Sequence record: OZ346205.1
DNA length: 64,000 nt
Direction: 5' to 3' (one strand)
Source: a phage
The position numbers and the translations under genes are program-made. Under the pieces are notes generated by a model that searched no databases, was not told where the DNA came from, and saw only the letters and a program-made list of their open reading frames with translations. This document shows, one piece after another, positions 4,376 through 64,000 of this stretch. Each line of letters begins with the position of its first letter. Positions within the stretch are counted from its first letter, which is position 1.

Positions 4376-6799
4376 ATGAGTATGTGGTCTTTCGATTTTG
4401 AGTCATCCGGTTTGCTGGAAGACCCAGATCTTTATTATCACTGCGGTCTGTTTAAAGAGCTGAATAAGAACCGTTTTATGCTGTTCCTTCCTCTAAATGA
4501 CCGCACACACTACTCCGAGGAGGATATAGAAAAGGCTAAGAACTTCATTCTGTCAAAGAAAACTCTTTATAAAGATTTTGAAGTTCGCATAGCAGATTTT
4601 TCGGAGTTGGAAGGTTGGCTTACAGGCAATTCTGACTGGTCACCAACAGCTTTGAACTGCCATAACTGCTACAGTTATGACTTTATGCTAATGGAAAGAT
4701 TATCCGGTATTCATTTTGATATGTTCCGTGATCCTAAATGCATGGGGACTATCAACGACCACCAGGTTAACCTGTTTGATACGTTGGCTATGAGCCGAAT
4801 CTTGTGGCCTGATCGCCCTTTACCAAAAGGTTGTCCGGACGCTGTATTCAACCCGGTTACTAAGAAAATGCAACCTGTTGGTCCTCACGGCCTTATGGCA
4901 TGGGGCTACGCCCTTGGTAACCAGAAAGTTCAAATTGATGACTGGCGCGATCTTCCGTTGTGGAAGTATGTGGATCGTGTATTCGAGGACGTTATCATCC
5001 AGGAGCTGCTCTGGAAAGAGCTGGTAGCGGAATCAAAAGGTGTATTCTACGGCAAATCTGACATGCAGAACTTTATGTACGATCCAGCCAAAGAGAAGCC
5101 GAAAGGGTTCAAGAAGATCACCTGGAAGAACGCATTACGTCGAGGCATGCTGCAGCACTTCCTGATGGAGCTGCAGGCCCGTCAGGGTGTATACTTCGAC
5201 ATAGATGGAGCTATTGCTTTACGTGACCGTTGCGATGCGTGGATGAAAGAAATCGCTGATCGTGTTGAACCACAACTACCTTTAAAAGAGCTGTCAATGT
5301 CTCAGCGGCCCAAGTTCCCTGAAAAGCCGTTTAACCAAGACGGGACAATCTCTAATAATGGTTGGAAATGGTTAAAAGATAAGCTTGGCTATCCTGTAGA
5401 CATGAGTGCTTTAGAGTTCAAAGCCCCGCCTAAGCGAGCATTTACCTCTACAGGAGATGTCAGCAAGATGGGGATAAAATGGTGTGAAGAGATGGGCTGC
5501 AAAGACCCCGATAAGATGGCTGATTTCTTGAGAGGCTATATTAAGGGCACCTCCACACCACAACCCTTACCTAAAGAGCTGATGGATCAGGCAATAAGTG
5601 ATCTGCAGCAGAAGCGAATGCCTGACTGCAAGATACCTATGAAAATCAGCAATCAGGACGACATCAAGCGATACCTAATCAGTGCTGGTTGGCTCCCAAC
5701 AATGTGGAGAACTAAAGATGTAACTAAAGACAGCAAGAAGAAAGCTTTACCTGATGCAGATGTTGATGCACGAGTATATGCATATATGGACGAGCTTTTG
5801 GAGTCAGAGTATTGTGACCTAATTATCAACTTCTGGAACAAAACTGATGCTAAGTTCCAGACAACCGTGCACAAGTTCCGAAGCTTTCCTAACTCCGAAA
5901 GGATTAAAAAGGAAGTATTCGGGAAAATACGTAGAAAAGCCAGGGCACTTATTACTTCTCCGCAACTGAAAGATACGTTTGGACACCTATGCCCAAATCT
6001 TGAAAAATTGAACGGAGAGATGGCTAAAGATATCGTCTTGTGGTTATCATTGCGAAACCGCAGATCGGTCCTTGATCCAATCAAGGAGGATAAGGTTGAT
6101 ACTGGTCTTCTTAATCACCCACGTTTGAAGATTGACCATAAGCTTCCTGCTAAAAGCTCTGGATTAACAAACACTTCCAGACAGAAACACAGTATTTGTG
6201 CAAACATGCCTAAACCATCTCCTAAAGTGGTTATGGGTAAAGAGATGCGTAGTCTGTGGGGTGTTCCTCCGGGATACTTTGAGATCGGTATTGACGGGTC
6301 CAACTTAGAGCAGCTTATCGGGGCTTGGGGTGCCTTTGAGTTCGACAACGGCCTGTATTATGATGTTGTAAGTAACGGAGACGCACACCAAAACAATGCT
6401 GAGGCATATACAAAAGTGGCAGGCAGAGAGGTGTCCCGTAACGACGGTAAACCTATCACGTATGGGGTTATGTACGGGGCACAAAAAGATAAAGTTGCAG
6501 ATATGTTGGACATCTCCCCAGAGTTGGGACAAAGGGTAATCGATGCACTCTGGGATGCCAACCCAGGTCTTAAGGGGCGCAAAGAGGATCTGGAGAAATT
6601 CTGGGAAGCAACAGGTAAGAAGTTTATCTACTCTTTTGATGGTCATGCTATCTGGACCCGATCTAAACACTCTTTACTTAATGCATACCAACAAAATGGC
6701 GGTGCATCGTTGTGTGACTTAGTTGGAATACTCATGCACCACCAGATGGTGAAGCGTGGGTGGTACGATGAAGGTGTTCGTCGTATTATTTATTACCAT
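4376..6799 (+). CDS. DNA polymerase, family A (Pol I-like), exon 1
   Basis: 3'-5' exo motif FDFESSG; motif A IDGSNLEQ; motif B R..GKPITYGVMYG; frame ends ...RRIIYYH just before motif C. Confidence 0.8.
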
Positions 6800-7075
6800 A
6801 AATAACATTGTGGCTTCATAGAGTAATCTATGTCGAATAACCTCTTTAACTGCGGGAAGCCTAAACCTTATGGCAAGGTAATCCGCAACGAAGCGCTCAA
6901 AAGAGCGAACGCTCAGAGGCCATTCCGAAAGGAAGTAGACCAGCAAGTGCGGTCGAAATGGGAGGATTCCTGTGGTTGCTTATCATAGGAATATGAGATG
7001 GTCCGATCCTACGTGAAAACGTATGGCTATGCACGTAATGGTGCGGGGTAGCTTAACGACCTACCTGAACTATTG
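6800..7075 (+). mobile_element. group I intron (no ORF) splitting DNA polymerase motif C
   Basis: P-like ACTGCGGGAAGCC (6848), Q-like AATCCGCAACG (6880), S-like GAGATGGTCCG (6995); follows exonic U, ends in G; exon junction YYH|DE restores motif C. Confidence 0.65.
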
Positions 7076-24386: not shown

Positions 24387-24869
24387 CTAACAGAAGAGAA
24401 TAAACACCATGAAACAGAAATTAATCGATGCAGTGATCTTGGTTATTGCCCTGGGTATTGGCCTGATTGCAACCATGTCTAATATGATCTTGTCTTCCAA
24501 CGGTATCGGGTGAGGTTGGCAAATGATCACTAACAAAACAGGCAAAACGGAATTTTTACGCAACTTACAGATCGGCAAGCCTGAGATCTGGTACTGCACT
24601 AAAACACCGCGTGACGAAATGGCTTCAAAAGGGGTCATGAACGAATAAACGGCATCATCATCTGCTTCAGGGAATGCTCCCAAAGACTTCATGTCTGAGC
24701 CCTTGACAAATACAAGGTTTTGATCAAAAGCTTCTTGGGGATCAATCCGATACATATTTCGTAGAATATCGCTTACCTCCTCATCAAGAGGTGAGTATGC
24801 TGTGCACGTTTTTCCGATCAAGCTTTGAGAATCAGGGTATCCACCTGAAGTTTTAAAATAAACAATCAT
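24387..24869 (-). CDS. hypothetical protein (extent uncertain)
   Basis: 160-aa ORF with GAGGTGA RBS; N-terminal 70 aa look protein-like, C-terminal part overlaps candidate + strand small ORFs. Confidence 0.35.
   Translation of the reverse strand: MIVYFKTSGGYPDSQSLIGKTCTAYSPLDEEVSDILRNMYRIDPQEAFDQNLVFVKGSDMKSLGAFPEADDDAVYSFMTPFEAISSRGVLVQYQISGLPICKLRKNSVLPVLLVIICQPHPIPLEDKIILDMVAIRPIPRAITKITASINFCFMVFILFC
24409..24513 (+). CDS. small hydrophobic peptide (34 aa), candidate
   Basis: Leader-type hairpin at 24354-24373 and AACACC-ATG context; conflicts with antisense ORF 24387..24869. Confidence 0.3.
   Translation: MKQKLIDAVILVIALGIGLIATMSNMILSSNGIG
24523..24648 (+). CDS. small protein (41 aa), candidate
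   Basis: GGGTGAGG 7 nt before ATG; conflicts with antisense ORF 24387..24869. Confidence 0.25.
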   Translation: MITNKTGKTEFLRNLQIGKPEIWYCTKTPRDEMASKGVMNE

Positions 24870-57852: not shown

Positions 57853-58203
57853 ATGAAAGATGGGGATAAGCTGCTATATCTTAAAGTCCCCCTTGAAATA
57901 CTGTCTATGTCAAAAGTTTTGAATGACACAACTGGTGAGGTTGTTGTTCTTGACTTATATGACAAGATCGTATACTGCTACCTGCACAACTGGTATAAGC
58001 TTGGAGGAAATTCACGCTTCACGCCCAGCACAAGGAAAATTGCAGCAGATATTGGGATAAAGAAAACAAAAGCAGCAGCGTGCGTTAAAACTTTAGAATG
58101 TGCAGGAGTGGTTGAAATATCCACGCAAGGGAGAGGTAAAAGATGCACATTTTCCAAAGTTTTGCCACCAGAAGAAGTTATTCGAATGTCAACAACTGGT
58201 TAG
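57853..58203 (+). CDS. putative winged-helix DNA-binding protein
   Basis: HTH-like STRKIAADIGIKKTKAAACVKTLE; immediately upstream of a palindromic iteron array. Confidence 0.4.
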   Translation: MKDGDKLLYLKVPLEILSMSKVLNDTTGEVVVLDLYDKIVYCYLHNWYKLGGNSRFTPSTRKIAADIGIKKTKAAACVKTLECAGVVEISTQGRGKRCTFSKVLPPEEVIRMSTTG

Positions 58204-58277
58204 ACCAGTAAAAACTTAAATATCTGTACTATAAGGATTCGTATGTTTTATGTTCACTCTGGAACAGAGGTTAGTAA

Positions 58278-58360
58278 CTGTCCGTGATACGGACACTACT
58301 GTCCGTCACGCGGACACATCTGTCCGTAATACGGACACTAACTGTCCGTGATACGGACAC
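58278..58360. repeat. iteron array: 4 tandem palindromes TGTCCGT-N5-ACGGACA
   Basis: Copies start at 58278, 58299, 58320, 58342 (21-22 bp period); followed by an A/T-rich stretch and further inverted repeats to about 58470. Confidence 0.8.
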
Positions 58361-58499
58361 ATAAAGAATATAACTAAAATAACTAAATAATAAAAAAAAT
58401 AAAAGATCTAGTACTTATGGTACTAAGTACATATACTTAACTTATGTAGAATATACTAGATCCTAAGTACCATGTTTTAAATTTATTACTTACTATAGG

Positions 58500-58790
58500 T
58501 AGTGTCGGCCCTTCATTGGCACTCGCCTACGAGGGGGCGAGATGCCGGGCCTCCTTGGTGCACACAATAACAGAAGTGCATACATGAAGGTCTGTTAACA
58601 TGTGTGGGAGCGAAGCGATAGCGCAGGCCAAAGGCCGAGCACTGATGTGGACCACCGACGAAAGCTTGCCAGCGCCGTAAGGAGTCGGTTGAGAGTCTCC
58701 CGCGCGAGCTTGGATGAAGTTTATGTGTGGAAACGGACAAGAAGGCCCCTAAATCGCTCCACAGCTATATAAACTATACCAGGTAAGGCA
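58500..58790 (+). other. GC-rich structured non-coding island (candidate ncRNA or leader)
   Basis: No credible ORF; nested inverted repeats, e.g. CCTTCAT/ATGAAGG, GGCACTCGCC/GGCGAGATGCC, GGGAGCGA/TCGCTCC. Confidence 0.3.
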
Positions 58791-58866
58791 ATCGCACCAG
58801 TTTGATAGAAAAGCTCGTTACAAAGCGATACAGTGAGTTTTTCTATAACTTGAAGAGGAGGCAGCT

Positions 58867-59445
58867 ATGAGTCCACGCAAAGATGACCGTGAAAAGATTG
58901 CAAAACGTTATCAGAATGAAGAACAGATGGAGAAAACTTTCAAGTGGAAGCCAGGTTTCCAGCGTAATCATTCTAACGCTCGTGATCGTAAGCATCCGGA
59001 TAAGTGGTTAACACCGCCAAATGATGGCATGCAGGTTGGGGATGAGAAGGAGCTGTCACCTGGAAAAGATGGCAACTACATTCGCACTAAGGAAGCAGGT
59101 CCAAAGGATGACAGCTATCTTGTAGATAAGGTTCTTGACGGTGTTGATGTAGGTGTTGACACTGTACGAAACCTTTTTCTTGGTTGGTATCGCACAGGGT
59201 TTTTCGACATCAAGGCTATTCGTCGTGTTTGTGATATTAAAAAGTCTGCCTACGATGATGATTCCCTACATCGCACTCTGAGACAATACTCAGAGAGGTA
59301 CGGTCATCCAGTTATCACTCTTGACGATATTAACGAAGTTATGTATCATGTAGAGGTTGTTGCAGGTAGGTTCGGTGATGCATATCTCGGTATTCTTTCT
59401 GCAAAGGATGAGGTAATGTTAAATAAGATTTACTATGAACGCTGA
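58867..59445 (+). CDS. hypothetical protein
   Basis: GAGGAGG RBS; 192 aa. Confidence 0.55.
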   Translation: MSPRKDDREKIAKRYQNEEQMEKTFKWKPGFQRNHSNARDRKHPDKWLTPPNDGMQVGDEKELSPGKDGNYIRTKEAGPKDDSYLVDKVLDGVDVGVDTVRNLFLGWYRTGFFDIKAIRRVCDIKKSAYDDDSLHRTLRQYSERYGHPVITLDDINEVMYHVEVVAGRFGDAYLGILSAKDEVMLNKIYYER

Positions 59446-59989: not shown

Positions 59990-60250
59990 ATCCAATTTAA
60001 AGATGAATTTGATGGCTTTATCTCCGGATGCTTTGAAACAGGGTTCGGAGAAGGCTGAGTTCCCCTTAGAGGGCTTGATAGTGCACCACACTTAAAATGG
60101 TAGGGGCAGCCAGCACATGACGATGTGACCCCAGCCAACCTGTAATAAGGTCGAGCCAAAGTGCGGTAATGGGCTCTGGTAACCCACTTGTTGGGTCTTG
60201 CTGGTCCAGGACGCTGGACAAGTCGCAGGGAATACCACCCTGCGGCGAAC
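59990..60250 (+). other. GC-rich non-coding island (candidate ncRNA or leader)
   Basis: About 340 nt without credible ORF between two genes; GC-rich relative to surroundings. Confidence 0.25.
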
Positions 60251-60279
60251 TTGACAATCAGTATTTGCTATGATAAAAT
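60251..60279 (+). promoter_or_regulatory. sigma70-like promoter
   Basis: TTGACA - 17 nt - TAAAAT. Confidence 0.55.
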
Positions 60280-61211: not shown

Positions 61212-61310
61212 GCTAGGTAAGCCCTTTGGCAAGGGCGAGGATTTTTAATCCTGAAAATAGACGAGGTAGTCGTTGAATACATAGGTGGTTCGATTCCATC
61301 ACCTAGCACC
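61212..61310 (+). tRNA. atypical tRNA-like gene (99 nt; anticodon loop TTTTTAA, UUU?)
   Basis: Acceptor GCTAGGT/ACCTAGC, D-arm GCCC...GGGC, T-arm GGTGG-TTCGATT-CCATC, but 30-nt extra region and imperfect anticodon stem. Confidence 0.4.
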
Positions 61311-62375: not shown

Positions 62376-62659
62376 GAGTTGCTACACTGTTTATTGTGTG
62401 CTTGTTATTATGTGGGTGTGCAACCAGCGTTGAGAGAGAATACAAGATTGACCCTCCTGATGTAGGAAGGTTGATTGTTAAACCCCCGGAAGGTGCCATG
62501 AAACCACCTGCTAAAGCTATGCCTTTGAAGAAAGGTGCGCCAGATGCAGTGAATTCTGGCATTATGAGGGATAATAATCTGTCTTGTAGCAATGATAGAG
62601 CTAAATTGATCATTTTGCAAGACTATATTAGAACACTTTTTCCAAAGGAGAGAGGTTAA
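62372..62659 (+). CDS. o-spanin-like outer-membrane lipoprotein (Rz1-like)
   Basis: Signal peptide with lipobox LLCGC, Pro-rich mature part; AGGAGG RBS. Confidence 0.55.
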   Translation: MRVATLFIVCLLLCGCATSVEREYKIDPPDVGRLIVKPPEGAMKPPAKAMPLKKGAPDAVNSGIMRDNNLSCSNDRAKLIILQDYIRTLFPKERG

Positions 62660-63084
62660 TGTCTAAGATTTACGGACCGTGTTCTGAAAAGCAGAAGATG
62701 ATCCTAGAAAACGATGCAGATATTTTGGTAATCGGCGGTGCCGCAGGGTCTGGCAAGTCGTTCCTCTTGCAATTGATGCCACTTAAAATTATTGATGACC
62801 CCCACAGCTCTGTGGTTATGTTCCGAAGAACAACCCCACAGTTGGAAGGTGAGGGTGGATTATGGCCTAAAGCAGTAGCTATTTATAGTGATCTGCCTGA
62901 AAACATTAAGCCAAAGTTTAGAGAGAAGGATCATAAGTTCATTTTTCCACGGTTTGATCCGAACACTGGCAAGTGGGATAGAAGCAAAAAGGGAGCTGTT
63001 GTAAAATACTGCCACATGGAGTATGTACAAGATAAGCTTAACCATCAGGGGCTTGAGTACACCATGGTTTGCTTCGATGAGGGT
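62659..63084 (+). CDS. terminase large subunit, exon 1 (ATPase N-terminus)
   Basis: Walker A VIGGAAGSGKSF; Walker B-like MVCFDEG at the exon end; frame interrupted by intron. Confidence 0.5.
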
Positions 63085-64000
63085 TAATTTGTAGCTCTCG
63101 TAAAACCTCCCTAATTGCGGGGAAATCTTTATTATTGACACCACCAACCTGTCATGGTAACATGACAGAGGCTTCGAAGAGAGATCGAAGGTATGGTAAC
63201 AGTGTGTTAATTTAGATAATCCGCAGCGAAGCATCCGAGAGGATGAACGTTCAACGACTAGTCGAAAGACGTAGAATCAAGCGATTCGAAACGGGAGGGT
63301 GAATGTGTAATACTAAGAAATGTATGGATTGCCAAAGAGTTCTACCTATTGATGATTTCTTTTTATCATCTAAGAGCAAGGATGGATACTCAGGTACATG
63401 CAAGGAATGCTATATGTACTACAGGAAGGGTGGATCTCGTAAAAACAAAAATATGGTTAAGAGAGATGATGCAGCATTGTTTATTCAAGACTTGCTGAAG
63501 AAAGGTGAACTTTTTGAATGCAAATCTTGTCATGAAAGTATGCTCGCTGATAGTTTTTACACAAAACGTGACTATGGTAAAGTATATCTGGTTACGAACA
63601 GGTGTAAGATGTGTGAAAAGTTTTATCAGATTGAGAAGAAATTTCACATAACAAAAGATGAATACTATCGTCTACTCTCAGATCAAGATCATAAGTGTGC
63701 CATTTGTAGAATATCCCTTGATGAGTATAGGACGCAAGGGTATAGAGATTTCTTTTGTGTTGATCATGACCATAAAACTGGTGCTGTAAGAGGGTTGCTT
63801 TGTGATAAATGCAACAGAGCTTTAGGTTTCTTCCAAGAGGATGAGGAAACTATTCTTAGAGCGGCAGAGTATTTACACATTCATAAGATATAGTCTGGTC
63901 TGCATGGAGACATGCAGCTGCCTGAAAATGGCGGGGCAAGACTAGCGACCTTGCCCGAACATAAACGACACAATTCGAATGGGAGCAGATAGACTACCTG
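63085..64000 (+). mobile_element. group I intron with homing-endonuclease ORF in terminase gene (3' end beyond window)
   Basis: P AATTGCGGGGAAATC (63113), Q AATCCGCAGCG (63228), R GTTCAACGACTAGTCG (63249), S AAGATATAGTCTGG (63884); ORF 63303..63893 lies between R and S. Confidence 0.65.
63303..63893 (+). CDS. intron-encoded endonuclease VII / HNH-family homing endonuclease
   Basis: CAIC...DHDHKTGAVRGLLCDKCN motif; N-terminal CxxC zinc-ribbon repeats; GGGAGGG RBS. Confidence 0.6.
   Translation: MCNTKKCMDCQRVLPIDDFFLSSKSKDGYSGTCKECYMYYRKGGSRKNKNMVKRDDAALFIQDLLKKGELFECKSCHESMLADSFYTKRDYGKVYLVTNRCKMCEKFYQIEKKFHITKDEYYRLLSDQDHKCAICRISLDEYRTQGYRDFFCVDHDHKTGAVRGLLCDKCNRALGFFQEDEETILRAAEYLHIHKI

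What the first reader, a model, noticed from the sequence alone, without database searches (positions are those of the whole stretch)
58500..58790. GC-rich structured non-coding island upstream of gene 58867
About 290 nt with no credible ORF (only a low-complexity antisense ORF) and much higher GC than the flanks, with nested complementary segments (CCTTCAT/ATGAAGG enclosing GGCACTCGCC/GGCGAGATGCC and GTGCA hairpins; GGGAGCGA pairing with TCGCTCC 140 nt later). This pattern suggests a structured RNA: sRNA, riboswitch-like leader or ribozyme.
Basis: seen in the sequence. Interest (0 to 1): 0.6.

Follow-up and report, generated by a model that had tools for sequence, protein, structure and literature searches.

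The report
Conserved hairpin element beside phage origin
The GC-rich island is a real, conserved, non-coding hairpin element that always sits next to an origin-like array of repeats in rV5-like phages, and it is also carried by small E. coli plasmids that look like satellites of these phages, so it is probably a cis-acting handle for phage replication (or packaging) rather than a riboswitch.

Summary
The window is an rV5-like (Vequintavirus) phage. The island at 58497-58800 is real: 55% GC against 19% in the stretch just upstream. It matches no Rfam family. Its only ORF is broken by stop codons in two relatives.

Folding energy alone is not significant (z = -1.7). Comparison with relatives does support structure.

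The core is single-copy. It stays about 87% identical in a divergent phage whose upstream gene and repeats cannot be aligned. It is still detectable in a more distant roughly 140-kb phage lineage.

The element is also the strongest, and the only extended, DNA similarity between these phages and 13-14 kb E. coli plasmids. Those plasmids encode a capsid protein, a tape measure and tail or neck proteins, so I read them as satellites.

In every lineage the element follows a lineage-specific array of palindromic repeats and an AT-rich stretch, while the flanking genes differ.

Best reading (about 0.4): it is the conserved, strand-specific part of a lambda-like origin, used by the phage replication machinery and copied by the satellites. 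Rivals are a cis-acting RNA leader, a packaging site and a protein-binding RNA.

The parts
57853..58203 (+). 116-aa winged-helix protein resembling the DNA-binding part of replication initiators.
   Evidence: PHROG 12838 'replication initiation protein', E=3e-80. Pfam HTH_36 and DUF6945 score near their cut-offs. A divergent 143-aa counterpart occupies the same place in the IMG/VR relative.
58275..58360 (.). Four tandem 21-22 bp repeats, each a palindrome TGTCCGT-N3-ACGGACA (iteron or operator array).
   Evidence: Other lineages carry different repeat sequences at the same place.
58363..58496 (.). AT-rich stretch (19% GC) containing an imperfect long palindrome. Candidate DNA unwinding region.
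58497..58800 (+). The GC-rich element as a whole. Conservation against the divergent relative begins sharply at its 5' end.
   Evidence: Identity to the IMG/VR relative is 34-42% upstream, against 86% for hairpin A and 87% for the core.
58507..58551 (+). Hairpin A: outer stem GGCCC/GGGCC, inner stem GGCACUCGCC/GGCGAG(A)UGCC.
   Evidence: 15 pairs, 100% paired in 6 sequences, with 2 compensatory swaps in plasmid NZ_CP020521.1.
58558..58581 (+). Variable, dispensable GTGCA hairpin.
   Evidence: An 18-nt deletion in rV5 and Pr121LW; not kept in the IMG/VR relative.
58601..58608 (+). G-box TGTGTGGG. There is one copy here and 3-5 copies in the plasmids and in the distant phage lineage.
58645..58651 (+). 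Conserved box ATGTGGA, just 5' of stem S.
58654..58689 (+). Stem S (ACCGAC/GUCGGU) enclosing the conserved 24-nt loop GAAAGCUUGCCAGCGCCGUAAGGA.
   Evidence: 95.8% of cells paired; 5 of 6 pairs changed on both sides; 0 of 500 shuffles reach the observed value. Five stem versions are seen.
58693..58705 (+). Conserved box GAGNCUCCCGCGC.
   Evidence: Invariant across the phages and plasmids except position 58696, and CUCCC becoming CUUCC in the IMG/VR relative.
58747..58758 (+). Conserved box CCCCTAAATCGC.
   Evidence: A related CTAAATGC is present in the distant lineage.
58805..58846 (+). 12-bp hairpin ATAGAAAAGCUC/GAGUUUUUCUAU, just upstream of the ribosome-binding site of the 192-aa gene. It may be a separate feature.
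   Evidence: I2. The segment is 92% identical in the IMG/VR relative. In Aya a C-to-U change gives a U.G pair.

Best explanation
The island is the conserved half of a lambda-like, iteron-type origin module.

The module reads, in order: an initiator-like winged-helix gene; four cognate palindromic repeats; a 19%-GC unwinding stretch; then this GC-rich element.

Proposed mechanism. The initiator and its repeats are lineage-specific. The element is common to all lineages. Once the region is single-stranded (melted DNA, or the + strand transcript that reads through from the early promoter), it folds into short hairpins. These hairpins display fixed single-stranded boxes: UGUGUGGG, AAUGUGGA, the GAAAGCUUGCCAGCGCCGUAAGGAG loop and GAGNCUCCCGCGC. 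A conserved phage factor, most plausibly the helicase-primase or its loader, recognises these boxes and starts DNA synthesis there. This would resemble the ssi hairpins of RSF1010 oriV, or a primer or R-loop RNA as in ColE1 and T4. The 13-14 kb plasmid satellites place the same element next to their own repeats and Rep gene, so that the helper's machinery amplifies them after infection.

Shown: the anatomy, the conservation, the covariation, the single-copy status, the sharing with the plasmids, and the constant neighbourhood.

Inferred: that the repeats form an origin, that the element acts in priming or loading, that a helper factor reads it, and that the plasmids are satellites.
For: 1. Constant neighbour. 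In the rV5-likes, the divergent IMG/VR phage, the distant roughly 140-kb lineage and every plasmid, the element lies 3' of an array of 3-5 palindromic repeats plus an AT-rich stretch. The repeat sequence differs between lineages and the flanking genes differ as well.

2. Conservation boundary. Identity to the IMG/VR phage is 34-42% across the winged-helix gene, repeats and AT-rich stretch. It is 86-87% across hairpin A and the core.

3. Adjacent proteins. The phage protein matches the DNA-binding domains of replication initiators. The plasmid 303-aa protein hits replication-initiator and O-like PHROGs weakly.

4. Structure. Stem S and hairpin A covary. Wobble variants occur on the + strand. 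The + strand folds 2-19 kcal/mol better than the - strand in all 9 homologues.

5. Copy number. There is one copy in the window, one in a whole rV5-like genome and one in each plasmid.

6. Link to the plasmids. The element gives the strongest, and the only extended (54-68 nt), DNA matches between the plasmids and the phage. The plasmids encode a capsid protein, a tape measure and a Dit-like protein, plus a neck protein that is 48-54% identical to rV5-like proteins.

7. GC skew. Cumulative GC skew turns about 1.5 kb upstream. The rV5 paper reports the same turn (PMC3606486).
Against: - No experiment maps an origin in these phages.
- The GC-skew turn coincides with a switch in transcription direction, so it is confounded.
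- The phage winged-helix protein (116-143 aa) is only a DNA-binding domain. With its four palindromes it could equally be a repressor with an operator array.
- No DnaA boxes lie in the region.
- UUCG tetraloops, wobble pairs and co-orientation with the flanking genes in every context fit a transcript at least as well as single-stranded DNA.
- Most of the covariation reflects a few deep splits (phage, plasmids, distant lineage), not many independent events.
- The model-fitted alignment A6 leans towards the structure it was fitted to.
Confidence: 0.4

Rival explanations
1. It is a cis-acting RNA within the early-to-late transcription unit. The + strand transcript would fold and act on the polymerase or on the message. 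Possible actions are processive antitermination (as HK022 put or lambda nut do), an RNA processing or stability site, or a helper-dependent switch that satellites use to turn on their operon.
For: - The element has the same orientation as the flanking genes in all four contexts.
- Wobble pairs fall on the + strand, and the + strand folds better.
- UUCG tetraloops occur in the plasmid modules.
- The rV5 paper predicts no promoter or terminator between P081 and this region, so it should be transcribed.
- The long unit must read through the tRNA genes into the late genes.
Against: - The downstream genes differ between contexts. Sigma-70 promoters separate the element from them in the plasmids and in the distant lineage.
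- This reading does not explain why a repeat array plus an AT-rich stretch always lies just upstream.
- No global fold or covariation is seen beyond the local hairpins.
- No Rfam match.
Confidence: 0.2
2. It is the packaging recognition (pac) site of these headful-packaging phages. Satellites that depend on the helper's terminase and portal have copied it.
For: - Satellites classically share the helper's packaging site (P4 and P2 cos; established knowledge).
- The plasmids encode a capsid protein but have no annotated portal or terminase.
- rV5-likes are reported to be circularly permuted with headful packaging (PMC8407724, PMC13211470).
- The element is single-copy.
- It lies 1.5 kb upstream of a 112-aa protein with a weak small-terminase hit (7joq, E=0.06) and 3.9 kb upstream of TerL.
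- The repeated TGTGTGGG boxes could be terminase-binding boxes.
Against: - Compensatory stem changes are not expected for a duplex DNA binding site.
- The constant pairing with a repeat array and an AT-rich stretch is unexplained.
- No GenBank record start clusters at the element.
- The small-terminase assignment is weak.
Confidence: 0.15
3. It is a trans-acting non-coding RNA that displays several UGUGUGGG boxes between variable hairpins. It would act as a sponge or assembly platform for an RNA-binding protein, in the manner of CsrB or RsmZ, or more remotely phi29 pRNA.
For: - Short conserved boxes are separated by hairpins whose sequences are swapped between relatives while the boxes persist.
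- The 8-mer TGTGTGGR is over-represented in the window: 12 copies against 4.6 expected.
Against: - No conserved promoter lies upstream and no terminator lies downstream.
- The rV5-likes have only one full box plus two partial ones.
- No binding protein is known.
Confidence: 0.1
4. It has no function of its own. It would be a recombination scar or selfish hairpin repeats exchanged between the plasmids and the phages, or a small protein gene (rV5 ORF 78).
For: - Similar hairpin triplets and G-boxes occur in a 2.5-kb non-coding region of other rV5-likes.
- Plasmid NZ_CP020521.1 has a composite, apparently recombinant, upstream region.
- GenBank records annotate ORFs in this region.
Against: - The core is the best conserved part of the locus.
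- It is single-copy.
- It is kept in three deep lineages, with compensatory changes.
- The ORF is broken in two phages and has no counterpart in the plasmids.
Confidence: 0.05

Closest known systems
Bacteriophage lambda ori (four iterons bound by O, an AT-rich stretch, then a palindrome)
   Same: Both have four palindromic direct repeats at about two helical turns, followed by an AT-rich stretch and then a palindrome-rich segment. Both have an adjacent initiator-type winged-helix protein. In both, the initiator and repeat specificity varies between relatives while the rest is conserved.
   Different: Here the repeats lie outside the gene. The protein is only 116-143 aa and lacks a loader-binding half. 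The conserved flank is about 300 nt with sequence-specific boxes. Nothing has been tested experimentally.
RSF1010 (IncQ) oriV with its ssiA and ssiB hairpins read by the plasmid primase RepB'
   Same: Both have iterons, GC-rich and AT-rich segments, and then strand-specific hairpins with conserved flanking bases. In RSF1010 these hairpins act as single-strand initiation signals for a dedicated primase.
   Different: No sequence similarity was tested, because no reference sequence was available here. Only one orientation is present, not a pair on opposite strands. The primase involved is unknown.
Primer or R-loop origins (ColE1 RNA II, T4 oriF/oriG, mitochondrial LSP with its conserved sequence blocks)
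   Same: In both cases a G-rich, hairpin-forming transcript next to an unwinding element is read in one direction.
   Different: No promoter or RNase H-type processing site was identified here. The presence of iterons is unlike ColE1 or T4.
Cis sites shared by satellites and helpers (P4 and P2 cos; PICI and SaPI packaging sites)
   Same: A short non-coding sequence is the main DNA similarity between a small element that encodes capsid-remodelling proteins and a large helper phage.
   Different: The helper here is virulent. The satellite-like element is a plasmid. The shared site is hairpin-rich and lies next to replication repeats.
HK022 put and lambda nut antitermination RNAs
   Same: All are cis-acting stem-loops in the leader of a long phage transcription unit.
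   Different: This element is much larger, with different motifs, and a constant link to a repeat array. There is no similarity by Rfam.

Membership tests
Any Rfam 15 family (sRNA, riboswitch, ribozyme, intron, tRNA-like) | The covariance-model score reaches the family's gathering threshold. | tested here: not met
   There is no hit in 58150-58950 at gathering thresholds. At E<=10 the best hit is rli43, 22.8 bits against a cut-off of 100. ARAGORN finds nothing here.
Riboswitch-like or regulatory leader | A conserved structured domain directly upstream of, and co-inherited with, the gene it regulates. | tested here: not met
   The downstream genes are a 192-aa protein in the rV5-likes, an HNH endonuclease in the distant lineage, and small ORFs plus Rep in the plasmids. 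Promoters intervene in two of the three contexts.
Protein-coding gene (rV5 ORF 78 and the BASEL small ORFs) | The reading frame is kept open among relatives. | tested here: not met
   Stop codons occur in B9-1 and in the IMG/VR relative. The plasmids have a 1-nt indel in the core.
Iteron-type (lambda-like) replication origin | Three or more direct repeats in helical phase. | tested here: met
   Four repeats of 22 nt, spaced 21, 21 and 22 nt. Analogous arrays occur in the other lineages.
Iteron-type (lambda-like) replication origin | An adjacent AT-rich unwinding stretch. | tested here: met
   58363-58496 is 19.4% GC.
Iteron-type (lambda-like) replication origin | A cognate initiator is encoded next to the repeats. 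| tested here: inconclusive
   A winged-helix protein with hits to initiator DNA-binding domains is present, but it is only 116 aa. The plasmid 303-aa protein hits O-like and initiator PHROGs at E of about 1e-3.
Iteron-type (lambda-like) replication origin | Replication initiates there. | not testable with these tools
   This needs marker-frequency or 2D-gel mapping.
Single-strand initiation (ssi) signal | A strand-specific hairpin with conserved flanks next to an origin. | tested here: met
   Stem S and hairpin A covary. The flanking boxes are conserved. Orientation relative to the repeats is fixed.
Single-strand initiation (ssi) signal | It is recognised by a primase or primosome and primes DNA synthesis. 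| not testable with these tools
   This is a biochemical property.
pac site | It marks the first terminase cut, that is, the start of a series of headful ends. | not testable with these tools
   Only position can be assessed: 1.5 kb upstream of a weak TerS candidate and 3.9 kb upstream of TerL.
CRISPR repeat mimic (RNA anti-CRISPR, solitary repeat unit) | The repeat-like sequence keeps the repeat's stem-loop. | tested here: not met
   20 of 29 bases match the E. coli I-E repeat (recalled from memory) at 58693. This is the best match in the window, and 1 of 2000 shuffles reaches it. However, two of the six stem pairs are C.U mismatches. The plasmids share only the first 13 nt.

The most novel reading that the evidence does not exclude
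The element is the cis-acting handle through which an undescribed family of 13-14 kb plasmid-borne satellites exploits virulent rV5-like phages. It would act as a folded single strand, RNA or DNA, whose conserved boxes are read by a helper replication or packaging factor. In the boldest form it would be an RNA cofactor or scaffold of that machine, as pRNA is for phi29.
Probability: 0.35. Interest if true: 0.85.

Novelty: new variant of a known kind. Interest (0 to 1): 0.7.

Why it matters
rV5-like phages are widely used therapy and biocontrol candidates, yet their origin, packaging signal and non-coding elements are unmapped.

This element gives a concrete, testable candidate for a cis-acting replication or packaging site.

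It also exposes small E. coli plasmids that encode capsid and tail proteins and share this site. If these are satellites of a virulent myovirus, that would be a new kind of satellite-helper pair in E. coli. It would bear on phage therapy outcomes and on plasmid annotation.

No paper describing either the element or the plasmids turned up in the library searches.

Tried and rejected
- **Rfam and tRNA scans:** Rfam at gathering thresholds and at E<=10, and ARAGORN, gave nothing.
- **Folding energy alone:** z = -1.7 and -1.8 on the two strands, not significant.
- **Host origin of the sequence:** there is no E. coli chromosomal match, only plasmid matches.
- **Coding reading:** rejected because of stop codons and an indel.
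CCTTCAT/ATGAAGG and GGAGCGA/TCGCTCC are chance-sized and broken in relatives.
- **A closing helix between GUGUGGG and CCCGCGC:** no covariation. It is mismatched in B9-1 and Aya, and no partner exists in the distant lineage. CCCGCGC can also pair with downstream GUGUGG boxes, so the pairing is left open.
- **A global fold from the phages alone:** the covariation term is about zero.
- **CRISPR I-E repeat mimicry:** the stem is not kept.
- **DnaA boxes:** none in the region.
- **Direct similarity between the phage winged-helix protein and the plasmid Rep or the distant lineage's 224-aa protein:** not significant.
- **AlphaFold of the 192-aa downstream protein without an alignment:** pLDDT 36, unusable.
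- **Pattern scans:** two of three IMG/VR scans found nothing and the third found one divergent rV5-like contig. The first genome-collection scan found nothing. The 18-mer genome scan returned 80 listed (95 counted) chance hits in unrelated, mostly non-enterobacterial genomes.
- **GAP31-like contigs:** they show no homologue of the core.
- **Literature:** no transcriptome or origin mapping exists for rV5-likes.

Full report
**Source and setting**

The window is an rV5-like phage of the genus Vequintavirus. The stretch 58200-58870 matches 119 phage records at 90-99.7% identity. It lies in a rightward transcription unit with this order: polynucleotide kinase, phosphoesterase, a 116-aa winged-helix protein, a 660-nt intergenic region, a 192-aa protein, small ORFs, tRNA genes, spanins, TerL. 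The rV5 genome paper predicts no promoter or terminator inside this intergenic region. It places the region in the unit that starts at promoter P081 (PMC3606486).

**Checking the observation**

- The island 58497-58800 is 54.9% GC, against 19.4% for the 134 nt just upstream and 43% for the window.
- No Rfam family matches and no tRNA or tmRNA is found.
- The ORF 58602-58772, annotated in rV5 and in the BASEL phages, has stop codons in B9-1 and in a divergent relative. The plasmid homologues carry a 1-nt indel in the most conserved part.
- Predicted folding energy is only 1.7-1.8 sd below shuffles on either strand. The sequence by itself therefore does not prove structure.
The GTGCA hairpin is dispensable, since it carries an 18-nt deletion in rV5 and Pr121LW. 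The two 7-mer long-range pairings are chance-sized and are broken in relatives.

**Relatives outside the phage genus**

A sensitive search of complete E. coli genomes hit only small plasmids, always in unannotated DNA. PLSDB and one metagenome scan added more.

These 13.2-13.9 kb circles include NZ_CP020521.1, NZ_CP035869.1, CP148565.1, CP134895.1 and NZ_CP178698.1. There is also a 39.6-kb record with three copies. They encode:
- a major capsid protein;
- a tape measure whose best phage hits are rV5-like tape measures, at 25% identity;
- a Dit-like protein 52-54% identical to the rV5-like 'tail tube initiator';
- a neck protein 48% identical to an rV5-like protein;
- a 303-aa protein with weak replication-initiator and O-like hits.

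No portal or terminase is annotated. I read them as plasmid-borne satellites of rV5-like phages. That is an inference.

Within the window, the element is the only DNA these plasmids share with the phage. Against a whole rV5-like genome it gives the strongest and only extended matches. The other matches are a few short stretches of 24-68 nt, mostly in structural genes and in a 2.5-kb non-coding region that the window lacks.

**Structure**

*Hairpin A (58507-58551).* It has 15 pairs and is fully paired in five phages and one plasmid. The only stem substitutions are two compensatory G-C to U-A swaps. All other differences fall in loops.

*Stem S (58654-58659 with 58684-58689).* It exists in five versions:
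- ACCGAC/GUCGGU in most phages;
- GCCGAC/GUCGGU, with a G.U pair, in Aya and the IMG/VR relative;
- GCUGCC/GGCAGC in seven plasmids;
- GUCCGGAU/AUCCGGAC in CP134895.1;
- GACGGC/GCCGUC in a distant phage lineage.

For stem S, 95.8% of cells are paired, 5 of 6 pairs changed on both sides, 0 of 500 shuffles reach the observed value, and slid registers drop to 53% or less. Two caveats apply. These counts reflect a few deep splits, not many independent events. Alignment A6 was fitted to the model.

*Strand evidence.* Wobble variants appear on the + strand: in stem S, in a small AAC-loop hairpin near 58768-58783, and in the hairpin at 58805-58846. The + strand also folds 2-19 kcal/mol better than the - strand in all nine homologues, although G-rich composition contributes to that difference.

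*Global fold.* None is supported. The RNAalifold covariation term for ten phages is 0.16 kcal/mol. A tempting helix between the G-box and CCCGCGC has no covariation and is mismatched in two phages.

**Grammar of the element**

Short conserved boxes are separated by small, mostly perfect hairpins, often with 3-4-nt loops. The hairpin sequences and their number vary between relatives. The boxes are:
- UGUGUGGG;
- AAUGUGGA;
- the loop GAAAGCUUGCCAGCGCCG(U/G)AAGGAG;
- GAGNCUCCCGCGC;
- CCCCUAAAU(C/G)GC.

The core model R1 finds exactly one copy in the window, one in a complete rV5-like genome and one in each plasmid.

**Context, the main clue to function**

In the window the element follows four tandem 22-nt repeats. 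Each repeat is a palindrome TGTCCGT-N3-ACGGACA, and they are spaced 21-22 nt apart. The 19%-GC stretch lies between the repeats and the element. The gene just upstream encodes a winged-helix protein that matches initiator DNA-binding domains.

*Divergent rV5-like contig from IMG/VR.* It has a different 143-aa protein of the same kind, different palindromic repeats and an unalignable AT-rich stretch (34-42% identity). Yet hairpin A and the core are 86-87% identical, and conservation starts exactly at the 5' end of the island.

*More distant roughly 140-kb phage lineage (three contigs).* These have four AAGGGCCAAATAATGGCCC repeats, an AT-rich stretch, hairpins, four UGUGUGGG boxes, AAUGUGGGA, a covarying stem S with a related loop, and then a sigma-70 promoter and an HNH endonuclease gene.

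*Plasmids.* Each has its own repeat family, a short AT-rich CTAATAGATAAAG segment, the box and hairpin array, the core, and then promoters with operators and the Rep operon.

The constant partner of the element is therefore a lineage-specific repeat array plus an AT-rich stretch. It is not any particular gene.

**Interpretation**

This is the layout of an iteron origin of the lambda type, with a variable initiator and repeat pair and a conserved flank. In RSF1010, such a flank carries hairpins that a dedicated primase reads on single-stranded DNA. In ColE1, T4 and mitochondria, a structured G-rich transcript primes synthesis. Both statements are established knowledge, not tested here.

I therefore favour an origin-associated priming or loading signal, read by a conserved phage factor and copied by the satellites (confidence 0.4). 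I cannot tell whether the active form is RNA or single-stranded DNA.

The rivals are:
- a cis-acting RNA in the early-to-late unit (0.2), which fits the orientation and the wobble pairs but not the varying downstream genes or the constant repeat array;
- the pac site shared with satellites (0.15), which fits satellite logic and the nearby terminase genes but not the compensatory stems;
- a multi-box protein-binding RNA (0.1);
- a scar, selfish repeats or a small gene (0.05).

A 20-of-29 match to the E. coli I-E CRISPR repeat at 58693 is the best in the window. However, the repeat's stem is not kept and the plasmids share only its first 13 nt. I treat it as probable chance.

**Verdict**

The finding is a real, conserved, structured non-coding element with no described family. 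The riboswitch and ribozyme flavours are not supported.

Noticed in passing
L005 (NZ_CP020521.1, whole record); also L004, L006-L011: 13-14 kb E. coli 'plasmids', typed as non-mobilizable, encode a major capsid protein, a tape measure, a Dit-like tail protein and a neck protein related to rV5-like proteins, plus an iteron and Rep replicon. They look like plasmid-borne satellites of virulent rV5-like phages. No paper on them was found.
   Followed up: partly
window 60030-60260: A second GC-rich (50-52%) non-coding island lies just upstream of a strong sigma-70 promoter (TTGACA-17-TAAAAT, rV5 P074) and of a 112-aa protein with a weak small-terminase hit (7joq, E=0.06). It is partly conserved in the distant lineage (L117 4200-4500). 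GAP31-like contigs have tRNA genes at the equivalent place, so it may be a tRNA-derived or tRNA-like RNA.
   Followed up: partly
window about 24619-24621; AlexBoehm MZ501048.1 87,952-97,737 (L019/L020): The window lacks about 9.8 kb that is present in phage AlexBoehm. The missing part includes a 2.5-kb ORF-free region (the 'non-coding' box of the rV5 paper). That region carries the same hairpin triplets and TGTGTGGG boxes, several repeat families, and two short (24 and 51 nt) matches to the plasmids.
   Followed up: partly
window 58805-58846: A 12-bp hairpin (ATAGAAAAGCTC/GAGTTTTTCTAT) sits directly upstream of the ribosome-binding site of the 192-aa gene. It is almost invariant in all phages, and the segment is 92% identical in the divergent relative. 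It may be a translational or mRNA-stability element in its own right.
   Followed up: partly
window 6790-7025: Rfam reports a group I intron (64.7 bits, cut-off 50). The relative AlexBoehm has a split DNA polymerase gene with a homing endonuclease in the matching region.
   Followed up: no
window 62659-63893: The TerL reading frame ends after 142 aa, and similarity to AlexBoehm stops at 63083. An ORF rich in Cys and His (63303-63893) follows. This suggests an insertion, an intron or intein with a homing endonuclease, in the terminase gene.
   Followed up: no
window 61212-61310: A 99-nt tRNA-like gene is called by ARAGORN with a four-base anticodon (atcc) and by Rfam at 35.5 bits. Relatives annotate it as tRNA-Lys or 'tRNA-OTHER'.
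   Followed up: no
window, whole: The 8-mer TGTGTGGR occurs 12 times against 4.6 expected (0 of 100 shuffles reach 12), on both strands. Only 58601 and 58724 are clustered.
   Followed up: no
window 58693-58721: GAGTCTCCCGCGCGAGCTTGGATGAAGTT matches the E. coli type I-E CRISPR repeat (recalled from memory) at 20 of 29 positions. It is the only match of 19 or more in the window, and 1 of 2000 shuffles of the island reaches it. The repeat's stem is not preserved.
   Followed up: partly
L005, upstream of the element (reverse strand; about 1400-2300 of the 2989-nt stretch printed): This plasmid carries two origin-like repeat regions in tandem, each with different repeat families. The phage-like hairpin A follows only the second. 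This suggests recombination between the plasmids and the phages at this locus.
   Followed up: no
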